A DNA stretch of 64,000 bases, taken from positions 3,151,806 to 3,215,805 of the forward strand of contig OZ251486.1 in NCBI GenBank assembly GCA_965242705.1, in the 5' to 3' direction. Below, one piece after another: positions 2,699-48,495 of the stretch. Below the pieces are notes generated by a model, which searched no databases, was not told where the DNA came from, and saw only the letters and a list, made by a program, of their open reading frames with translations. Source of the stretch: Bryobacterales bacterium. Lineage in GTDB: Bacteria; Acidobacteriota; Terriglobia; Bryobacterales; UBA6623. Within the stretch, counting starts at the first letter, position 1; every line of letters begins with the position of its first letter. The position numbers and the translations under genes are program-made.

Positions 2699-4093
2699 AT
2701 GAGCGACCGCAAAGACCTGCTGCGCAGTCTGCCGTCGGTGGATGCGCTGCTCGAATCGGAAGCGGGCGCGGCCTGGCTGCGGGCGCTGCCGCGGGAGCGC
2801 GTTGCGGCCCTGGCGCGGGACGCGCTGGCCGAGGCGCGCGCCGCCATTCTTGCGGACAAGACGCCCGCCGCGCGCCCCGCCGCGGCCGCGGTCAAGGCCG
2901 GCGTCGAAGCGAAACTGGCCCGGCTGACGCGGCCTTCGCTGCGCCGCGTCATCAACGCTTCCGGGGTCATCCTGCATACCAATCTGGGGCGCGCGCCGCT
3001 CGCCGAGGCGGCCGTCGAGGCGATTCGCGAGACCGCGGCCGGATATTCCAATCTGGAGTACGACCTGGCCGCGGGCGGGCGCGGACGGCGCGACGTTCAC
3101 GCGGGCGGGTTGCTCGAGCAGTTGCTCGGCGCGCCGGCCGTCGTCGTCAACAACAACGCGGCGGCGGTCTTGCTGGTGTTGAACGAACTTTCGCGGGACG
3201 GCGAAACAATCGTTTCCCGCGGCGAGTCGATTGAGATCGGCGACGGCTTCCGCATTCCCCAAATCATCGAGCGCTCGGGCGCGGCGCTGCGCGAAGTCGG
3301 AACCGCAAATCGGACGCGAATCGACGACTACCGCGCCGCGGTCGGCGAGCGCAGCCGCGCGCTGCTGCGCGTTCACCCCAGCAACTTCCGGCAGATCGGC
3401 TTCACCGGCCGCCCCAGTCTGGTCGAGATGGCGGCGCTGGCGCGGGAAACGTCGCTGCCCCTGGTGGAAGATCTGGGCAGCGGCTGCCTCGACGACCTGC
3501 GCCCGCTCGGCATCGACGACGAGGCGCCGGTCGGCGCAAGCCTCGCAGCCGGCGCGGACGTAGTGACCTTTTCCGGCGACAAACTGCTGGGCGGCCCGCA
3601 GGCGGGCATTATCGCCGGCAAGCCGCAACTCGTCGAGCGCATCCGGCGCAACCCCCTGTTCCGCGCCTTGCGCGTCGATAAGCTGACCTACGCCGCGCTG
3701 GGGGCGACCTTGCAGGAATACATCCGCGGCAACCGGGAAAGCATCCCCGTCTTGCGCATGATGCATGCGCCGGCGGCCGCGCTGCGCGGGCGGGCCGCGC
3801 GTTTCGTTGCAAGACTCGACCGGCCGGGCGTCGCCGTCCGCGAGAGCGAATCGCTGCTCGGCGGCGGCTCGACGCCGCTGCGCGCGCTGCCTTCGCCGGT
3901 CATCGCGGTCGAGCCGGAGGCCGGCGGGTCGGCCCAGCGCGTCGAGCGGCGGCTGCGCGCCGGCGAGCCGCCGGTAGTCGCCCGCATCGAACAGGGCCGC
4001 CTGCTGCTCGACCTGCGCGCCGTCGCCGAAGCGGAGGAAGACGACCTGCTGCGGGCGCTCGAAGCCGCCCTGCGCGAAGAGCGCCGCGAATAA
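2699..4093 (+). CDS. selA: L-seryl-tRNA(Sec) selenium transferase
   Basis: ATG at 2699 inside track ORF 1022..4093. The protein begins MSDRKDLLRSLPSVDALL and contains VINASGVILHTNLGRAPL and the PLP-lysine motif FSGDKLLGGPQAGII, which are typical of SelA. Confidence 0.95.
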   Translation: MSDRKDLLRSLPSVDALLESEAGAAWLRALPRERVAALARDALAEARAAILADKTPAARPAAAAVKAGVEAKLARLTRPSLRRVINASGVILHTNLGRAPLAEAAVEAIRETAAGYSNLEYDLAAGGRGRRDVHAGGLLEQLLGAPAVVVNNNAAAVLLVLNELSRDGETIVSRGESIEIGDGFRIPQIIERSGAALREVGTANRTRIDDYRAAVGERSRALLRVHPSNFRQIGFTGRPSLVEMAALARETSLPLVEDLGSGCLDDLRPLGIDDEAPVGASLAAGADVVTFSGDKLLGGPQAGIIAGKPQLVERIRRNPLFRALRVDKLTYAALGATLQEYIRGNRESIPVLRMMHAPAAALRGRAARFVARLDRPGVAVRESESLLGGGSTPLRALPSPVIAVEPEAGGSAQRVERRLRAGEPPVVARIEQGRLLLDLRAVAEAEEDDLLRALEAALREERRE

Positions 4094-5936: not shown

Positions 5937-6935
5937 TCAGCCGCCGACGGAAACGACGCGGCCCGTTTTCGCCGATTGGCCGGCGGCGTCGGCCAGGATG
6001 AGCGCGCGGCGGCCGTCCTCGAACGTCGGCGAAGGCTGCCGCCCCTGCTCGACGGCTTCGACGAACGCCTCGACCTCGGCAACGTAGGAAGCGGCGTAGC
6101 GCTCGATGAAGAAATGGTGCAGCGGCGGCCTTGCCGCGGTTGCCGACCCGCCCCAGCGCTCGATTTGCGTCGGCGTCGGGTTTGCCGAGACGAGCATCCC
6201 TTTCGCCCCGAACGCCTCGACCCGCTGGTCGTAACCGTAGGCGCAGCGGCGCGAGCAATTGATGCAGCAGAGGGCGCCGGACGCCGTTTTCATGACGATC
6301 ATGGCCGTATCCACGTCGCCGGCCGCGCCGATGCGCGCGTCCGTAAGCACACTGCCCAGGGCGGAAACCTCGACGAACTCTTCCGCGAAGATGAACCGCG
6401 CCAAATCGAAATCGTGGATGGCCATGTCGCGGAACAGGCCGCCCGACGCCTCGAGGTAATCGAGCCCGGGCGGCGCCGGGTCGCGGCTGGTGAGAATCAG
6501 TTTTTCCAACGCGCCGATCTCGCCGGCGCGCGCCGCCCGCTGCAAGGCGAGATGGCCGGGGTCGAAGCGCCGATTGAACCCGATCTGGATCGGAACGCCG
6601 CTTGCGGCGAGCGCATCGCCGCAGGCGTTGACGCGGGCGATGTCGAGATGGATCGGTTTTTCGCAGAGAACCGCCTTGCCGGCGCGCGCCGCCCGCTCGA
6701 TCAGATCGCAGTGGGTTTCGGTCGCCGAGGCGATGAAAACCGCGTCGATAGACGGGTCTTCGAGCAGCGCTTCGGGGGAATCGACGGCCGCCGCGCCGCA
6801 TTCCGCCGCCGCTTCCTCGGCCGCGGCGCCGGCGGCGTCGTAGATCGAGACGAGCCGGGTGTACGCGCCGGCGGCCAGGTTGCGCGCGTGCATGCGGCCG
6901 ATGCGGCCGGCGCCTAAAAGTCCGAATCGCAGCAT
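5937..6935 (-). CDS. Gfo/Idh/MocA family NAD(P)-dependent oxidoreductase (inositol 2-dehydrogenase-like)
   Basis: MLRFGLLGAGRIGRMHARNL Rossmann N-terminus, the EKP motif (VLCEKPI), and IGFNRRFDP. Confidence 0.88.
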   Translation of the reverse strand: MLRFGLLGAGRIGRMHARNLAAGAYTRLVSIYDAAGAAAEEAAAECGAAAVDSPEALLEDPSIDAVFIASATETHCDLIERAARAGKAVLCEKPIHLDIARVNACGDALAASGVPIQIGFNRRFDPGHLALQRAARAGEIGALEKLILTSRDPAPPGLDYLEASGGLFRDMAIHDFDLARFIFAEEFVEVSALGSVLTDARIGAAGDVDTAMIVMKTASGALCCINCSRRCAYGYDQRVEAFGAKGMLVSANPTPTQIERWGGSATAARPPLHHFFIERYAASYVAEVEAFVEAVEQGRQPSPTFEDGRRALILADAAGQSAKTGRVVSVGG

Positions 6936-6962
6936 GGCTCTCTTCGCTGACGGCGCGGCGCC

Positions 6963-8816
<1,854 letters not shown>

Positions 8817-45348: not shown

Positions 45349-45563
45349 AAGCCGAAGACTATTCCGAGCGCGAGTTGGAACTGGCCGGCTGGCCGGTGCG
45401 CATCGTTTCGTACAAGCTCGGCGAGACGTATTACGCCAAGGCGGACAACGTTTCTCCGGGCGCCGTGATCGCGCGTCGCGCGGCAGCAAGCAAGGCGGAG
45501 GCCGAGGCCAAAGTTTCGGCCGCGGCGGAAACGCGGCTTGCCGCTACCCGCCGCCGGGTTTAG
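45345..45563 (+). CDS. Small hypothetical protein translationally coupled to the rhodanese
   Basis: 72-aa ORF (MKAEDYSERELELAGWPVRIVSYKLGETYYAKADNVSPGAVIAR..). Its start overlaps the sseA stop (ATGA). Confidence 0.5.
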   Translation: MKAEDYSERELELAGWPVRIVSYKLGETYYAKADNVSPGAVIARRAAASKAEAEAKVSAAAETRLAATRRRV

Positions 45564-45698
45564 GAAAGCTCTGCGCAAGCAGGCAACAACGGCGGGCGCA
45601 GCCCGCGAGCCGCCGAGAAGATAGCCGAAGGGCTTGCCGATCCGCTGGTCGTTGACTGGTTGAGCAAGCCGCTGCCTCGCATTTGAGGGGGAGAGACG

Positions 45699-46037
45699 AT
45701 GACCGCCGAGAAGCTCACCGCCGAGATGATCCACAAGATACGCATTGAGGCGGACGGCGCCAGAGCCGCCGCCGTGCGTCTGTATGCGGACTACGTGGCG
45801 GCGATGTCCCAGGGGCGGCAGACCGTGGACGGCGAGCCGGTTGAGGCGCTGCGCGAGGCGGCTGCCCGTGCCGCCAGTGACGCATGGAAAGCGCATGTGG
45901 TCGCCGATGCGGCTGGGATCATTGAAGCGCATGATGCTGAGATTGAGCGGGCTGAGATCGAGCGGGAGGTCGCCGAGTACGTCGCTGAGTATGACGACGA
46001 TTACGATGACGACGACGAGGACGAGGTGACGGCATGA
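45699..46037 (+). CDS. Hypothetical helical protein with a poly-acidic C-terminus
   Basis: 112 aa, with GAGGGGGAGAGACG upstream of the ATG, ending ..AEYVAEYDDDYDDDDEDEVTA. Its stop overlaps the next start (ATGA). Confidence 0.45.
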   Translation: MTAEKLTAEMIHKIRIEADGARAAAVRLYADYVAAMSQGRQTVDGEPVEALREAAARAASDAWKAHVVADAAGIIEAHDAEIERAEIEREVAEYVAEYDDDYDDDDEDEVTA

Positions 46038-46053
46038 CCTACGCGCTGATCCA
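46023..46053 (+). repeat. Junction repeat J1, copy 1
   Basis: GAGGTGACGGCATGACCTACGCGCTGATCCA. 29 of 31 positions are identical to 46953..46983. It spans the SD and the first 7 codons of the MTYALIQ genes. Confidence 0.9.
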
Positions 46054-46384
46054 ACTCGAAACCTACGGCGATATTCCGGGGTTCCTGTGGCGTACGCTGA
46101 CAGACCCGGCGTATTGGGCGGTTATCCTCGTTATCGGCGTCATCGGCGGAGTCTGTAAATCCATCGCCGACAGCCAAGACGACGCGCGGAAGAAGCGCCG
46201 CTTGATGGCATCGGCCAAGAAGGGCAGAGGCGAGGGAGACCGCGGAACGGACGGCATGACGAAGGCCGGCGCGGGCAGTACTGGACGGAGCAGGCGCGGC
46301 GCGAGAAGCAGCGCGAGAGGCAAGAGCAAGCATGGCGAGACGATTGAGGGGCGGGGGCGTTTCACCCAGCGTGAATTCGTGTAA
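46034..46384 (+). CDS. Hypothetical small membrane protein (MTYALIQ family, copy 1)
   Basis: 116 aa: MTYALIQLETYGD.., a TM helix (YWAVILVIGVIGGV), and a basic G/R/K-rich tail. Its 5' and 3' ends lie inside repeat junctions J1 and J2. Confidence 0.45.
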   Translation: MTYALIQLETYGDIPGFLWRTLTDPAYWAVILVIGVIGGVCKSIADSQDDARKKRRLMASAKKGRGEGDRGTDGMTKAGAGSTGRSRRGARSSARGKSKHGETIEGRGRFTQREFV

Positions 46385-46391
46385 CTTGGGG
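46348..46391 (+). repeat. Junction repeat J2, copy 1
   Basis: GGGGCGGGGGCGTTTCACCCAGCGTGAATTCGTGTAACTTGGGG. The 19-bp core GAATTCGTGTAACTTGGGG is identical to 47867..47885. Confidence 0.9.
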
Positions 46392-46441
46392 CGCTTGGCC
46401 GCGCTCGGCAACGTGCCATGATTTACTTGAGGATAGAGACG

Positions 46442-46930
46442 ATGAAACCGACTGTGAAAATTCTGTTTGTTCTGTTGGCCGCGCTGTTAGCGCAAACGGC
46501 TTCGGCGCAAGATAACGTTTGCCCGCCTGGTGGGATCATCTACCAGCACGGCAACCTTATCGGGCGCGATCTGGACGGCGACATCTCCGAGCAGGAGGTG
46601 CAGGCCTTCCAAGAGCGGGGCTTGAGGTTCCGCGTCCATCCCGCGCACTTGGCGGGGCCGCATGGAGAGACCGGGCGCTATCGCACGGTGACGCTCAAGG
46701 CGGTCTTCGGAACCGCCAACAACGGGGGACCCTCGCGGGTGCTCGAGTTCTCGATTCCCGACGAAACGAACCGCACAGCGTTCGTCGGCACCAGCCCGTG
46801 GAGTTTTGAGCTTCGGAATCTTGGAGACGGCTATTTTCACCTGTACCCCGATAACGCGCCTCTCTACGCGCCTCGCATGATCTACACGGGTGATGTCTGC
46901 TTCTACCAAGCTGAGCAGCCGCAGCGTTGA
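46442..46930 (+). CDS. Hypothetical secreted protein
   Basis: ATG at 46442 after GAGGATAGAGACG. Signal peptide MKPTVKILFVLLAALLAQTASAQ. AT-richer than the flanks. No family recognised. Confidence 0.55.
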   Translation: MKPTVKILFVLLAALLAQTASAQDNVCPPGGIIYQHGNLIGRDLDGDISEQEVQAFQERGLRFRVHPAHLAGPHGETGRYRTVTLKAVFGTANNGGPSRVLEFSIPDETNRTAFVGTSPWSFELRNLGDGYFHLYPDNAPLYAPRMIYTGDVCFYQAEQPQR

Positions 46931-46952
46931 GGCGGACAAGCTGAACAGGCAG

Positions 46953-46983
46953 GGGGTGGCGGCATGACCTACGCGCTGATCCA
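46953..46983 (+). repeat. Junction repeat J1, copy 2
   Basis: GGGGTGGCGGCATGACCTACGCGCTGATCCA. Confidence 0.9.
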
Positions 46984-47279
46984 GAGCGAGCCCTACGAGC
47001 TTTTGGGGCCGCGTCGGCGTTTTCGCGCTGATCGCCATCATTGCCGCCGTCCAAGAGGCCAACAAGGAGCATCGGATAGGCCTGCATACGGTCATCTACC
47101 GCGTCCACGGGGAGGGCTGGCGCGCCGGCGAAACCTGCGTTGGCCAGGCGGCGGCGATGGACAGCGCCGCCGCCGTGCAAGACAAACACGGAGGCCGCCG
47201 CAAGTGCGACGTGGAGATTTTCGCCGGCGACGCCCGCGCTGCTGAGGCTGAGGCGCGGCGGCTGAACGGAGGGGGATAG
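46964..47279 (+). pseudogene. MTYALIQ family copy 2, requires a +1 frame change near 47000
   Basis: Frame 0 gives MTYALIQSEPYEL, then arginine-rich nonsense. The +1 frame from the CTTTTGGGG run reads FWGRVGVFALIAIIAAVQEANKEHRIGLHTVIYRVHGEGWRAGETCVGQAAAMD...RRLNGGG, stopping at 47277-47279. That frame has no start codon of its own. Confidence 0.4.
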
Positions 47280-47281
47280 GC

Positions 47282-47794
47282 ATGAAGGGCGCGATCAAGT
47301 GGGTCTGTTGGCTGACGGCGCTGGCGCTGGGGACGGCGGCGGCGCTGGGGCACTCGAAGTGTATGTACACGGAGAACATCGATGAATTCGACGGCGAATC
47401 CACGAATATGTTTTTGTGCATCACGGAAGACCGAGCGGCGCATTTCTATATGATGTGCCATGAAACCGGGTATTTGATGGGGGTTGACCTTGTTGAAAGA
47501 TATATGGAAACAGAGGGAGAGCGCATTAAGCTGGAGTATTCCATTGATCGCGGAAGGATTGTCGGAGACATCGAAACTGTCGTGCTTGAAATGAGCGACG
47601 GCGGGCAGCTGCAAGTTGTTGCTAGCAAGGAATCACAGGAAGCAGTCGAGAGATTGAGCGGATATTTTCCCGAGGCCAAGCAACTGGCGATTCGCTCGAA
47701 GCTGAAGCATCACGGAACGAGCACGGCGGTATTCCGGTTTGACTCTTCTTCCCGTTCCGCCCATGCCGATTTCGTGAATGCTTGCGGGCGGTGA
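47282..47794 (+). CDS. Hypothetical secreted Cys-containing protein
   Basis: GGAGGGGGA lies upstream of the ATG. Signal peptide MKGAIKWVCWLTALALGTAAALG. This is the most AT-rich coding stretch in this part of the window. No family recognised. Confidence 0.55.
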   Translation: MKGAIKWVCWLTALALGTAAALGHSKCMYTENIDEFDGESTNMFLCITEDRAAHFYMMCHETGYLMGVDLVERYMETEGERIKLEYSIDRGRIVGDIETVVLEMSDGGQLQVVASKESQEAVERLSGYFPEAKQLAIRSKLKHHGTSTAVFRFDSSSRSAHADFVNACGR

Positions 47795-47834
47795 CGGAAT
47801 CAAAGGGCGGTCAAAAGGTGGTCAACGGTCGAGC

Positions 47835-47885
47835 GGGGCGGGGGGCGGGCGCGTTTCATGCAGCCGGAATTCGTGTAACTTGGGG
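47835..47885 (+). repeat. Junction repeat J2, copy 2 (runs into the G18 tract)
   Basis: GGGGCGGGGGGCGGGCGCGTTTCATGCAGCCGGAATTCGTGTAACTTGGGG. Confidence 0.9.
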
Positions 47886-47899
47886 GGGGGGGGGGGGGG
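47882..47899 (+). repeat. Homopolymeric G18 tract
   Basis: Read directly: 18 consecutive G, ending 2 nt before the ATG at 47902. Confidence 0.95.
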
Positions 47900-47901
47900 C
47901 G

Positions 47902-48495
47902 ATGCGCGTACAGATATTTTCCGACATCCACGGCGACCTGAAAGCGTTGGAGCGGGCGGTTGCGGTCGAGGCCGACATCTACATCGCCGCGGGCGACTTG
48001 GTGACTTGGCCGGCGCCGCTCGACGACTGCGGGAAAATCCTGACGCCGCTCGGCGAGAAGCTGTGGGCCATGCCGGGCAACAATGAGACCGACGAACAGA
48101 TCGCGGAGTTCTGCGCGGAATACGGCTTGCGCAACTTTCACGATACGGTCATCGAGGTCGCCGGCACGCATTTCGCCGGGCTCGGCTACTCCAATCCGAC
48201 GCCGTTCGACACGCCGGGAGAGTACAGCGAGCAGGAGCTTGAGCGGCGGCTGGCGCGGTTCGCGGCGCTGCAGCCGCTCGTGCTGGTCTGCCACGCGCCG
48301 CCGCTCGACAGCCCGCTGGACGAGTCGGCGGGCGGCAATCACTTCGGCAGCAGCGCCGTGCGCGCGTTCCTCGACGCCCACGCCCCGACATATTTTTTCT
48401 GCGGGCACATCCACGAGTCCGCCGGCCGAGTCGCGCGCATGGGCCCAACGTTGGCGGCGAACGTCGGCAAGAAGGGCTATCTGCTCGAGCTGTAA
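47902..48495 (+). CDS. Calcineurin-like metallophosphoesterase
   Basis: MRVQIFSDIHGD.., ..AAGDLV.., ..MPGNNE.., ..VCHAPP.., ..CGHIHE.., i.e. the canonical metallophosphoesterase motif series. Confidence 0.82.
   Translation: MRVQIFSDIHGDLKALERAVAVEADIYIAAGDLVTWPAPLDDCGKILTPLGEKLWAMPGNNETDEQIAEFCAEYGLRNFHDTVIEVAGTHFAGLGYSNPTPFDTPGEYSEQELERRLARFAALQPLVLVCHAPPLDSPLDESAGGNHFGSSAVRAFLDAHAPTYFFCGHIHESAGRVARMGPTLAANVGKKGYLLEL

What the first reader, a model, noticed from the sequence alone, without database searches (positions are those of the whole stretch)
45564..47901. AT-richer small-ORF islet assembled from two alternating junction repeats (J1-J2-J1-J2)
Between the rhodanese operon and the metallophosphoesterase lie five short ORFs with no recognisable family. 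They are two MTYALIQ-type small membrane proteins, two unrelated signal-peptide proteins and an acidic helical protein. The composition drops visibly, especially in 47282-47794.

Two repeat types alternate:
- J1 (31 bp, 29/31 identical, 46023 and 46953) covers the SD and the first 7 codons of the MTYALIQ genes.
- J2 (19-bp perfect core GAATTCGTGTAACTTGGGG plus a G-rich upstream part, 46348 and 47835) forms the 3' end of copy 1 and recurs, out of coding context, after the second module.

The segments J1-[ORF B]-J2 and J1-[ORF D, ORF E]-J2 therefore look like alternative cargo between fixed ends. That resembles cassette exchange, orphan modules of polymorphic loci, or repeated site-specific insertions. 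No integrase or recombinase is visible.
Basis: partly seen in the sequence, partly recalled or inferred. Interest (0 to 1): 0.6.

Follow-up and report, generated by a model that had tools for sequence, protein, structure and literature searches.

The report
Repeat-jointed ORFan gene islet insertion
A 2.3-kb strain-specific insertion in a soil acidobacterium is pieced together from a tiny private pool of small secreted and membrane-protein genes that are spliced at a conserved 40-60-nt intergenic joint, a cassette-like arrangement with no known recombinase or integron features.

Summary
Both repeats are real, the five ORFs have no known family, and ORF E is AT-richer.

The islet (45564-47901) is an insertion. 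In four congeners the rhodanese-operon stop and the metallophosphoesterase (MPE) ATG lie 13-42 bp apart.

J2 (GCGTTTCA-N14-GTGTAACTTGG plus a G-run) is a discrete intergenic joint:
- It occurs six times in this Bryobacterales genome, only in three arrays of the same ORFan families.
- It also occurs in near-conspecific metagenome contigs that carry different cargo between J2 copies.
- It is not found in 185,579 species genomes or in JGI metagenomes.

J1 is not a fixed end. It is the shared ribosome-binding site (SD) and 5' end of the paralogues B and D, which are adjacent (C-D-B-J2) in the intact module.

The window's B-J2-C-D is a circular permutation of that module, bracketed by GGCATGA. B and D are frameshifted here, so B's overlap with J2 is secondary.

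Tests for an integron integrase, attC structure, serine or Y1 recombinases, an RNA fold and a canonical promoter were all negative.

My best reading is J2-bounded modules shuffled by recombination at J2, which probably also acts as a portable 5' expression element. The enzyme is unknown. I rate it a new variant of cassette-like loci, of moderate interest.

The parts
45561..45563 (+). Stop codon (TAG) of the small ORF that ends the rhodanese operon. This is the left edge of the insertion.
   Evidence: In congeners L010-L013 this stop lies 13-42 bp from the MPE ATG.
45562..45604 (+). 5' part of a genome-wide REP-like intergenic repeat (at least 22 copies) that forms the left end of the islet.
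   Evidence: blastn-short against the whole genome and the aligned copies.
45699..46037 (+). ORF A: a 112-aa acidic helical protein and singleton ORFan. Its stop overlaps the start of B (ATGA).
   Evidence: no homologue among 5.8 billion proteins; coding-like GC1>GC2<GC3.
46025..46067 (+). J1 copy 1: SD plus the first 11 codons of B.
   Evidence: The same 5' end is present on B24 and D24 in L024.
46031..46037 (+). GGCATGA, the left copy of the 7-bp direct repeat that brackets the permuted module B-J2-C-D.
   Evidence: Read directly from the sequence.
46034..46347 (+). Gene B: a MTYALIQ-type single-pass membrane protein. It is frameshifted by a 1-nt deletion at 46268/46269. The native stop is TGA at 46345-46347. 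The assembled ORF runs on to 46384 through J2.
   Evidence: tblastn of the intact B24 (105 aa) splits into two frames.
46348..46391 (+). J2 copy 1. Blocks: GTTTCA at 46359-46364 and GTGTAACTTGG at 46379-46389, followed by G4.
46392..46441 (+). C-type 5' leader. The same leader, followed by a C-type signal peptide, sits in front of an NHL-repeat gene at C1:1411329-1411470.
   Evidence: 82% identity over 143-153 nt.
46442..46930 (+). Gene C: a 162-aa secreted beta-rich ORFan. Paralogues C' (68%) and C'' (36%) lie at two other J2 loci.
46955..46997 (+). J1 copy 2: SD plus the first 11 codons of D.
46964..47279 (+). Gene D: paralogue of B with a C-terminal soluble domain. It is frameshifted by a 1-nt insertion near 47009-47010. 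The rest reads in frame from 47001 to 47279.
   Evidence: intact D24 residues 27-118 match 47001-47276 at 73%. The position of the insertion is my manual alignment of these sequences.
47280..47286 (+). GGCATGA, the right copy of the 7-bp direct repeat, at the D stop / E start joint.
   Evidence: Sequence and block order.
47282..47794 (+). Gene E: a 170-aa secreted ORFan, 54% GC. Paralogue E' is 71% identical from residue 23 onward; the signal peptides are unrelated.
47842..47885 (+). J2 copy 2. Blocks: GTTTCA at 47853-47858 and GTGTAACTTGG at 47873-47883.
47882..47899 (+). G18 tract. It extends the terminal G-run of J2 and ends 2 nt before the MPE ATG. This is the right edge of the insertion.
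   Evidence: The G-run is 2-6 nt long in the other J2 copies.
47902..48495 (+). Metallophosphoesterase gene: the conserved right flank, now directly behind J2 and the G18 tract.
   Evidence: Pfam PF00149. Synteny in congeners.

Best explanation
The islet is a strain-specific mosaic insertion. It is built from a very small, lineage-private pool of genes for small secreted proteins (C, E) and single-pass membrane proteins (B, D), plus the singleton A.

**The joint.** The pool is organised in segments separated by a discrete intergenic joint, J2. J2 has two invariant blocks, GCGTTTCA and GTGTAACTTGG, exactly 14 nt apart. Some copies carry the palindrome GGATCAATTGATCC on the left. All have a G-run of variable length on the right.

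**Shuffling (inferred from structure).** Segments bounded by J2 have been moved and swapped between three chromosomal sites and between near-conspecific strains.

**Origin of the window's order (inferred).** The order B-J2-C-D is what results if a J2-closed circle, or a tandem copy, of the module C-D-B-J2 was opened at the D/B start-codon joint. It would then have been inserted between A and E at the 7-bp sequence GGCATGA.

**What J2 does (inferred).**
- It is the preferred breakpoint for these exchanges.
- It is most likely also a portable 5' expression element (promoter or operator with leader). If so, each segment, and whatever gene ends up behind the last J2, keeps being transcribed. Here that gene is the metallophosphoesterase, whose native 42-nt leader was replaced.
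- No dedicated recombinase is evident. I assume rare short-homology or illegitimate recombination filtered by selection, possibly aided by DNA uptake.

**State of the window copy.** It is decaying: B and D are frameshifted.

**J1.** It is only the shared 5' end of the paralogues B and D.
For: **Insertion.** The rhodanese-operon stop and the MPE ATG are 13-42 bp apart in G002, G003, G005 and G006, and adjacent in two other genera.

**Distribution of J2.**
- Six copies with 0 mismatches in 15 block positions, and nothing else convincing at up to 2 mismatches. All six lie in three arrays that hold C, E, B or D relatives.
- Only chance singletons in 185,579 species genomes and in JGI metagenomes.

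**Cargo is private to the lineage.**
- C: only own paralogues plus two metagenome proteins, by word-indexed and by exhaustive HMM search.
- E and A: no homologues.
- D: absent from 300 genomes of the order.

**Cargo exchange at one locus.**
- GT2-Y-GMC has a single Y and no cassettes in three congeners and in 14 Bryobacterales species.
- The own genome has Y-J2|F-C'|J2|E'|J2-Y. Contig L024 has Y-J2|C-D-B|J2-Y.
- Flanks are 96.5-98.5% identical (dS 0.044) against cargo dS 0.25.
- Left homology ends exactly at the TTGGG of the first J2. One J2 is 40/40 identical in both strains behind different genes. The extra E' unit sits exactly after that J2.

**Permutation.** Window 46031-46390 matches L024 3296-3655, and window 46403-47285 matches L024 2357-3302. 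GGCATGA sits at both ends.

**5' role of J2.**
- Every intact J2 has a co-directional start codon within 130 nt downstream.
- At C1:1411349 and in L171 the upstream gene is divergent, so that J2 has no co-directional gene upstream of it.
- The one J2 with no gene behind it has lost its right block.
- The J2-plus-leader-plus-signal-peptide unit has been grafted onto an NHL-repeat gene.

**Decay is probably real.** There is only 1 gap in 5,817 nt between this assembly and an Illumina contig. B, D and the NHL gene are nevertheless frameshifted.

**The ORFs look coding.** They show GC1>GC2<GC3. The intact family members compared differ in length without losing their frames.
Against: - Only two strains and three loci are available, so every exchange is inferred from end states.
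- The conserved blocks (8 and 11-12 nt) are short for RecA-dependent recombination. That favours a site-specific enzyme over the mechanism I assume.
- J2 is a poor match to the canonical promoter that the genome's tRNA genes show (TTGACC-17-TAnnAT against GTTTCA-17-TAACTT). The sigma-70 scan does not call it. There is no wider regulon with the motif.
- No J2 lies at the left edge of the window islet, so its entry was not a simple J2-by-J2 event.
- dN/dS of 0.35-1.2 is also compatible with largely functionless, decaying DNA.
- The function of all five proteins is unknown. The model of C has pLDDT 70 with no fold match; the model of E is unusable.
Confidence: 0.45

Rival explanations
1. J2 is the recombination site of a dedicated site-specific cassette system. 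The logic is like an integron (cargo plus site excised as a circle and reinserted at another site) but the parts differ. The recombinase would act in trans from elsewhere in the genome: one of the two tyrosine recombinases, or an unrecognised enzyme.
For: - Strain-variable segments have sharp boundaries exactly at the ends of J2.
- One J2 is 40/40 identical behind different genes.
- One locus differs by exactly one extra [cargo+J2] unit inserted after TTGGG.
- J2 copies are mosaics of invariant 8-nt and 11-nt blocks with three unrelated 14-nt centres. Exchange points therefore fall in identities too short for RecA.
- The window module is circularly permuted.
- The blocks form an imperfect inverted repeat, GTTWCAC-N13-GTGWAAC.
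Against: - No recombinase gene lies at any of the three loci.
- Genome-wide there are only two intact tyrosine recombinases, 0 serine recombinases and 0 Y1 transposases. The best integron-integrase score is 82 bits against a cut-off of 265.
- The window islet has no J2 at its left edge. Its internal joints lie at start codons (GGCATGA) and at signal-peptide boundaries, not at J2.
- L171 shows a scar-like 33-nt duplication at a J2 end rather than a clean site.
- One J2 sits with no cassette upstream of it.
Confidence: 0.25
2. J2 is simply the promoter or leader of one gene family, copied along with its genes. The arrays come from ordinary duplication, deletion and divergence. The repeats play no part in rearrangement and nothing is mobile.
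For: - J2 plus leader travels with C-family genes: C, C24 and the NHL chimera.
- Every intact J2 precedes a co-directional gene.
- The cargo is confined to one lineage, as expected for in-house duplication.
Against: - Two of the three arrays, the window islet and the GT2-Y-GMC array, are insertions relative to congeners.
- J2 also precedes unrelated genes: E', F, Y and MPE.
- Cargo at one locus differs between strains whose flanks have dS 0.04.
- Homology breaks coincide with J2 ends.
- The module order is permuted.
Confidence: 0.12
3. The islet is a classical integron cassette array or a CALIN (a cluster of attC sites lacking an integrase).
For: Co-directional small ORFs of unknown function separated by a repeated element with conserved ends and a variable centre.
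Against: - No IntI.
- No RYYYAAC...GTTRRRY pair at 35-130 nt spacing on either strand in any of the four arrays.
- J2 has the opposite polarity (GTT... on the outside left, ...AAC on the outside right).
- The core is only about 28 nt, with no significant hairpin.
Confidence: 0.02
4. The islet is an assembly artefact: a chimeric join or collapsed repeat in a long-read MAG.
For: - Only one assembly carries this islet.
- A homopolymer G18 lies at one edge.
- Two genes are frameshifted.
Against: - Related arrays with the same J2 exist in independent Illumina metagenome contigs.
- The assembly shows 1 gap in 5.8 kb against such a contig.
- Both islet edges fall exactly at the stop and start codons of intact flanking genes.
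- Long G/C tracts occur 42 times in the genome.
Confidence: 0.03

Closest known systems
Integron gene cassettes and CALINs (Cury et al. 2016, PMC4889954)
   Same: - Arrays of co-directional, mostly unknown small genes.
- Units are delimited by a repeated site with conserved ends and a variable centre.
- One locus differs between strains by whole units.
- There is a hint of a circular intermediate.
- Arrays without an adjacent integrase (CALINs) are known.
   Different: - No integron integrase anywhere in the genome.
- J2 lacks the attC R''/R' core sites, the attC hairpin and the attC length.
- Several genes can share one unit.
- Some joints lie at start codons rather than at the repeat.
- One J2 sits 5' of a gene with no cassette upstream.
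Putative mobile promoters / promoter reuse (Nijveen, Matus-Garcia & van Passel 2012, PMC3575422)
   Same: - Highly similar upstream non-coding sequence sits in front of unrelated genes within one genome (C, E', F, the NHL protein, Y, MPE).
- It is not associated with a known mobile element.
- The mobilisation mechanism is unknown.
   Different: - J2 alone (about 44 nt) is shorter than that study's criterion of at least 50 nt at 80% identity.
- J2 is confined to arrays of one gene pool.
- J2 coincides with the boundaries of exchanged gene segments, which goes beyond promoter duplication.
- Promoter activity is untested and the match to the sigma-A consensus is poor.
Minimal mobile elements of Neisseria (discussed in PMC3787668)
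   Same: - Alternative gene content lies between the same conserved flanking genes in different strains (GT2/Y ... Y/GMC).
- The cassette carries no mobility genes.
- Exchange is presumed to occur by recombination after DNA uptake.
   Different: - Here the cassettes are subdivided by an internal conserved joint.
- The same cargo families recur at three unrelated sites.
- One site carries a duplication of about 400 bp of the flank.
- Competence of this organism is unknown.
Recombinase-associated acquired interbacterial defence (rAID-1) arrays of Bacteroidales (Ross et al. 2019, Nature; recalled from memory, not checked here)
   Same: Arrays of small, often exported orphan proteins of atypical GC content, separated by conserved intergenic repeats.
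   Different: - rAID arrays start with a XerD-like recombinase and hold recognisable immunity genes.
- Neither is present here.
Conserved 5' expression modules with a homopolymer tract in variable surface-protein families such as Mycoplasma vlp (recalled from memory)
   Same: - A conserved upstream element plus, in some members, a conserved signal peptide is joined to divergent mature proteins.
- A homopolymer tract of variable length (2-18 G) lies next to the putative promoter.
   Different: - The tract lies downstream of the -10-like block, not between -35 and -10.
- Switching has not been observed.
- The proteins are not lipoproteins.

Membership tests
Integron / CALIN | Integron integrase (IntI, TIGR02249) in the genome or next to the array | tested here: not met
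   Best hit is 82 bits against a cut-off of 265 and looks like a generic Xer or phage tyrosine recombinase. None lies near the three arrays.
Integron / CALIN | attC sites: an RYYYAAC ... GTTRRRY inverted core pair 35-130 nt apart that folds into a hairpin | tested here: not met
   0 matches on either strand in all four arrays. J2 folds have z-scores from -1.2 to +1.5 with no shared structure. IntegronFinder's own covariance model was not available.
Integron / CALIN | At least two repeated sites separating co-directional promoterless ORFs | tested here: met
   Two or three J2 copies per array, all in direct orientation, separating co-directional ORFs. Whether the ORFs lack promoters is unknown.
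Putative mobile promoter | At least 80% identity over at least 50 nt upstream of genes that are not paralogues | tested here: inconclusive
   J2 plus leader is 82% identical over 143-153 nt between gene C and an NHL-repeat gene, but that stretch includes a shared signal peptide. J2 alone is 44 nt at 89% between C and MPE.
Putative mobile promoter | Actual promoter activity | not testable with these tools
The consensus scan was negative. Geometry GTTTCA-17-TAACTT is compatible with a promoter but weak against the tRNA promoters of this genome.
Minimal mobile element | Different gene content between the same conserved flanking genes in different strains, with no mobility genes in the cassette | tested here: met
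   The GT2-Y...Y-GMC locus holds F-C'/E' in G000, C-D-B in L024 and nothing in congeners.
IMEX (Xer/dif-exploiting element) | A joint that resembles the host dif site (XerC arm, 6-nt spacer, XerD arm) | tested here: not met
   The candidate dif site at C1:2239609 (ATTGCCGATAACATATATTATGTCAACT) has no counterpart of its XerC arm or spacer in J2.
Transposon or MITE | Terminal inverted repeats, target-site duplication, scattered intergenic copies | tested here: not met
   Within each array all J2 copies point the same way. No inverted copy exists and no copy lies outside the three arrays. No target-site duplication is visible at the islet edges.

The most novel reading that the evidence does not exclude
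J2 is the recombination site of a previously undescribed, integron-independent gene-cassette system in Acidobacteriota. Units of one to three small genes plus a 40-60-nt site would be excised as circles and reinserted at other J2 sites or at start-codon joints. The enzyme would be a recombinase encoded elsewhere or not yet recognised as one.
Probability: 0.2. Interest if true: 0.8.

Novelty: new variant of a known kind. Interest (0 to 1): 0.5.

Why it matters
Cassette-like gene exchange is well understood only for integrons. How small accessory genes are shuffled in slow-growing soil phyla such as Acidobacteriota is largely unknown.

This case offers a compact system with one conserved joint, five or six tiny gene families and three loci. 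Two near-conspecific strains differ by whole units. Both questions it raises can be tested with a few PCRs, a reporter and a two-site excision assay:
- Is there a recombinase-independent or novel recombinase route for cassette exchange?
- Do such joints double as portable promoters?

It also shows how an insertion into an operon can bring its own downstream-facing joint, placed exactly at the next gene's start codon.

If the cargo (secreted proteins with dN/dS near 1) proves to be under diversifying selection, the arrays could be contingency or interbacterial-interaction loci.

Tried and rejected
**Hypotheses tested and dropped**
- **Integron / CALIN.** No IntI and no attC-type cores.
- **RNA element.** No Rfam match at E up to 1. 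No consistent or significant fold of ten J2 copies.
- **Canonical sigma-70 promoter or intrinsic terminator at J2.** The scan found none.
- **ECF-type motifs.** I tried reading TGTAAC or TGAAAC as a -35 by eye. No conserved -10 follows across copies.
- **General regulon.** A motif search at up to 2 mismatches finds only the six J2 copies plus one likely chance hit.
- **MuA-binding site.** The left block resembles YGTTTCAY and a Mu-like remnant lies 12 kb upstream. The motif is at chance frequency in the window and absent from the Mu-like region.
- **dif / IMEX.** Not similar.
- **Serine recombinases and Y1/RAYT transposases.** None in the genome.
- **Phage or plasmid origin.** No DNA match.

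**Protein function**
- Pfam, PHROGs, PADLOC and NCBIfam gave nothing.
- The AlphaFold model of C (pLDDT 70) has no fold match (best E 0.05, TM below 0.3).
- The model of E has pLDDT 38 and is unusable.
- A 7,703-aa NRPS hit to the C profile (E 1e-6) is judged spurious: a repetitive, Ala-rich giant protein.

**Searches that found nothing further**
- A first family-wide pattern search used the wrong spacer (N15-19 instead of N14), so its null result is void. It was superseded.
- More alleles were sought by exact-protein look-ups of A, the small ORF, MPE, B24, Y1 and Y2. No new contexts appeared.

**Tool unavailable**
Read-level tests of junctions, tract length and expression could not be done.


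Full report
**1. The observation**

- J2 is a 44-nt pair (46348-46391 and 47842-47885, 89% identical) with a perfect 19-mer core.
- J1 is a 43-nt pair (46025-46067 and 46955-46997, 86% identical; the first 29 nt match 28/29).
- The 19-mer has four genomic copies at up to 1 mismatch and none for the reversed control.

The five ORFs exist and match nothing in Pfam, PHROGs, PADLOC or NCBIfam. ORF E is 54% GC in a 65% GC genome. All five ORFs show the coding pattern GC1>GC2<GC3, with lower GC3 in C and E than in the flanking genes.

**2. The islet is an insertion**

The organism is a Bryobacterales (Acidobacteriota) long-read MAG, judged from the record titles of its relatives.

In four genomes of the same genus, the stop of the small ORF that ends the rhodanese operon lies 13-42 bp from the ATG of the metallophosphoesterase (MPE). 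In two other genera the two genes are also adjacent.

In the window the whole intergenic spacer is replaced by 2,338 bp (45564-47901).
- The left edge starts with the 5' part of a REP-like repeat that has at least 22 genomic copies.
- The right edge is J2 followed by an 18-nt G tract and then CG-ATG.

**3. J2 recurs, always with the same gene pool**

The core GTTTCA-N14-GTGTAACTTGG occurs six times in the genome with no mismatch. At up to 2 mismatches there is only one further, unrelated-looking site. The copies lie in three arrays.
- **The window:** two copies.
- **C1:1.82 Mb (L007):** three copies. The layout is Y-J2-F-C'-J2-E'-J2-Y'. C' is 68% identical to C and E' is 71% identical to E.
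- **C1:1.41 Mb (L008):** one intact copy, in front of an NHL-repeat gene that carries the C-type leader and signal peptide. The C'' gene (36% identical to C) lies downstream and is followed by a degenerate J2.

In L007 and L008, J2 copies that follow a co-directional stop codon are preceded by the palindrome GGATCAATTGATCC (one mismatch in the degenerate L008 copy).

The core gives only chance singletons in 185,579 species genomes and in JGI metagenomes. My first attempt used a wrong spacer and is void.

**4. The cargo is private to this lineage**

- C has only its own paralogues and two metagenome proteins as relatives. This holds in both the word-indexed search of 5.8 billion proteins and an exhaustive HMM search of 1.8 billion representatives.
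- E and A have no homologues.
- D is absent from 300 genomes of the order.
- The islet has no DNA match in phage or plasmid collections.
- An AlphaFold model of C (pLDDT 70, beta-rich) has no fold match. The model of E is unusable.

**5. A near-conspecific strain shows the intact module and cargo exchange**

The one external C homologue lies on metagenome contig L024, which is syntenic with L007. There the array is Y-J2-C-D-B-J2-Y', with intact D (118 aa) and B (105 aa).

*What this shows about J1, B and D*
- B and D are adjacent paralogues that share the MTYA(L)IQ 5' end. J1 is therefore their common SD and N-terminus, not a junction repeat.
- The window's B has a 1-nt deletion at 46268/46269. 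Its native stop (TGA, 46345-46347) lies immediately before J2, so J2 is not natively coding.
- The window's D has a 1-nt insertion near 47009-47010. This position comes from my manual alignment of the window against D24.
- This assembly differs from the Illumina contig by a single gap in 5,817 nt of flank. These frameshifts, and a third one in the NHL gene behind another J2, are therefore probably real decay and not sequencing error.

*What this shows about the locus*
- In three congeners and in 14 Bryobacterales species the locus is GT2-Y, with a single Y and no cassettes. GMC directly follows Y in the closest of them. The array, together with a duplication of about 400 bp of REP+Y, is therefore an insertion.
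- Between the two strains the flanks are 96.5-98.5% identical. GMC has dS 0.044 and dN/dS 0.04. C' against C24 at the same locus has dS 0.25 and dN/dS 0.88.
- Left homology ends exactly at the TTGGG of the first J2.
- One J2 is 40/40 identical in both strains, although it follows B in one and C' plus the palindrome in the other.
- Relative to L024, the own genome has one extra unit (leader-E'-palindrome-J2) placed exactly after that J2.
- J2 copies are mosaics: the two blocks are invariant, and the 14-nt centre comes in three unrelated versions.

**6. How the window's order arose**

Window 46031-46390 (B+J2) matches L024 3296-3655. Window 46403-47285 (leader-C-D) matches L024 2357-3302. B-J2-C-D is therefore a circular permutation of C-D-B-J2.

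The permuted block is 1,249 bp and is bracketed by GGCATGA (46031-46037 and 47280-47286). This is the start-codon joint of B and of E.

The simplest reading is that a J2-closed circle, or the middle of a tandem copy, of the module was opened at the D/B joint. It then recombined into an A-E bicistron at that 7-bp sequence. The reverse history, by unequal crossover at GGCATGA or at J1, is also possible. This step is inference.

Other joints in the system also sit at functional boundaries:
- the signal-peptide/mature boundary of E (homology to E' starts at 47348);
- the graft of the C-type leader and signal peptide onto the NHL gene.

Contig L171, the orthologue of L008 in the other strain, has a different J2 centre. 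At the right end of its J2 there is a 33-nt scar-like duplication of AACTTGGGGGG-SD-ATG.

**7. What J2 is**

*Tested and not met*
- Integron integrase.
- attC cores.
- A conserved or significant fold.
- Rfam families.
- Canonical sigma-70 promoter or terminator.
- Similarity to dif.
- MuA-type site.
- Transposon-like inverted copies.

The genome has only two intact tyrosine recombinases, no serine recombinase and no Y1 transposase. None lies near the arrays.

*In favour of a 5' expression role*
- Every intact J2 has a co-directional start within 130 nt downstream.
- One J2 has only a divergent gene upstream.
- The J2 with no gene behind it has lost its right block.
- The blocks can be read as GTTTCA-17-TAACTT followed by a G-rich discriminator.

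*Against*
- tRNA promoters in this genome are canonical (TTGACC-17-TAnnAT), and J2 is a poor match.

*In favour of a recombination role*
- The sharp segment boundaries, the mosaicism and the permutation described above.

The two roles are compatible. I commit to J2 as a portable expression joint that is also the preferred breakpoint of module exchange. I put 0.45 on a version without a dedicated recombinase and 0.25 on a dedicated site-specific system.

In the window the terminal J2 plus G18 now abuts the MPE start codon. This probably supplies transcription to an operon that the insertion interrupted.

**8. Function of the cargo**

Function is unknown.
- C and E are Sec-type secreted, Cys-containing proteins.
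- B and D are single-pass membrane proteins.
- A is acidic and helical.
- dN/dS values are 0.35-1.2. This fits relaxed or diversifying selection and does not prove either.

**9. Limits**

All exchange events are inferred from end states.

**10. Earlier notes of this scan**

Earlier notes had flagged the G18 tract and the frameshift in D. I confirm both. By my own alignment to the intact orthologue I move the D indel from the T4G4 run to GGGGC[C]GCG.

Noticed in passing
Whole genome; in the window 47882-47899 (also G000:C1:75994, 1269569, 2281098 and others): There are 42 homopolymer G or C tracts of 12-25 nt in a 5-Mb, 65% GC genome, while no A or T run exceeds 9 nt. Many sit in two or three repeated sequence contexts, for example ...CCTACCTGAATTGC-G(n)-TAAAACGG... 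and ...GGAACGGAAG..C-G(n)-CTGCCGGC.... This suggests families of tract-bearing, possibly phase-variable loci.
   Followed up: partly
window 45562-45604 and at least 21 other genomic sites: A REP-like intergenic repeat, GGAAAGCTCTGCGCAAGCAGGCAACAgCGGCGGGCGCAGCC..., usually begins right after a stop codon. Its 5' part forms the left edge of the islet.
   Followed up: partly
L007:5800-5880 and 7720-7800 (minus strand); L024:2307-2356 and 3656-3730: A second repeat family has GACCCGCGACCCGCC units, a GCCGCGCAAAGCGCGGC hairpin and CCCTAACCCC motifs. It is inserted directly after the G-run of J2 in three arrays. This suggests that the right end of J2 is also a preferred site for this repeat.
   Followed up: no
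L007:5381-5749 and 7341-7712 (minus strand); L024:1890-2261 and 3736-4089: About 400 bp (REP plus most of the conserved 117-123-aa gene Y) is directly duplicated on both sides of the cassette array. The upstream copy has a new C-terminus that runs into the J2 palindrome. The structure is the same in two independent assemblies.
   Followed up: partly
L007:7074-7286 (minus strand): A 70-aa Cys-rich ORF (F: CEFC...GQC...WCGEW, with an acidic tail) starts a few nt after a J2. Its stop overlaps the ATG of C' (ATGA), the same coupling as between A and B in the window.
   Followed up: no
L008:3538-5800 and 6413-8319: Two tandem IS5-family transposase genes lie beside the third J2 locus in this genome only; they are absent from the orthologous contig L171. 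The NHL-repeat gene behind that J2 is frameshifted near L008:7042, whereas L171 has an intact 637-aa gene.
   Followed up: partly
L171:5880-5960: In the other strain the J2 in front of the NHL gene has a different 14-nt centre. It is followed by a 33-nt duplication, AACTTGGGGGGAGAGrCGATGAAACCGA, whose first copy carries the first codons of a C-type gene. This may be the scar of a lost cassette.
   Followed up: partly
G000:C1:2239609-2239636: Candidate chromosomal dif site: ATTGCCGATAACATATATTATGTCAACT.
   Followed up: no
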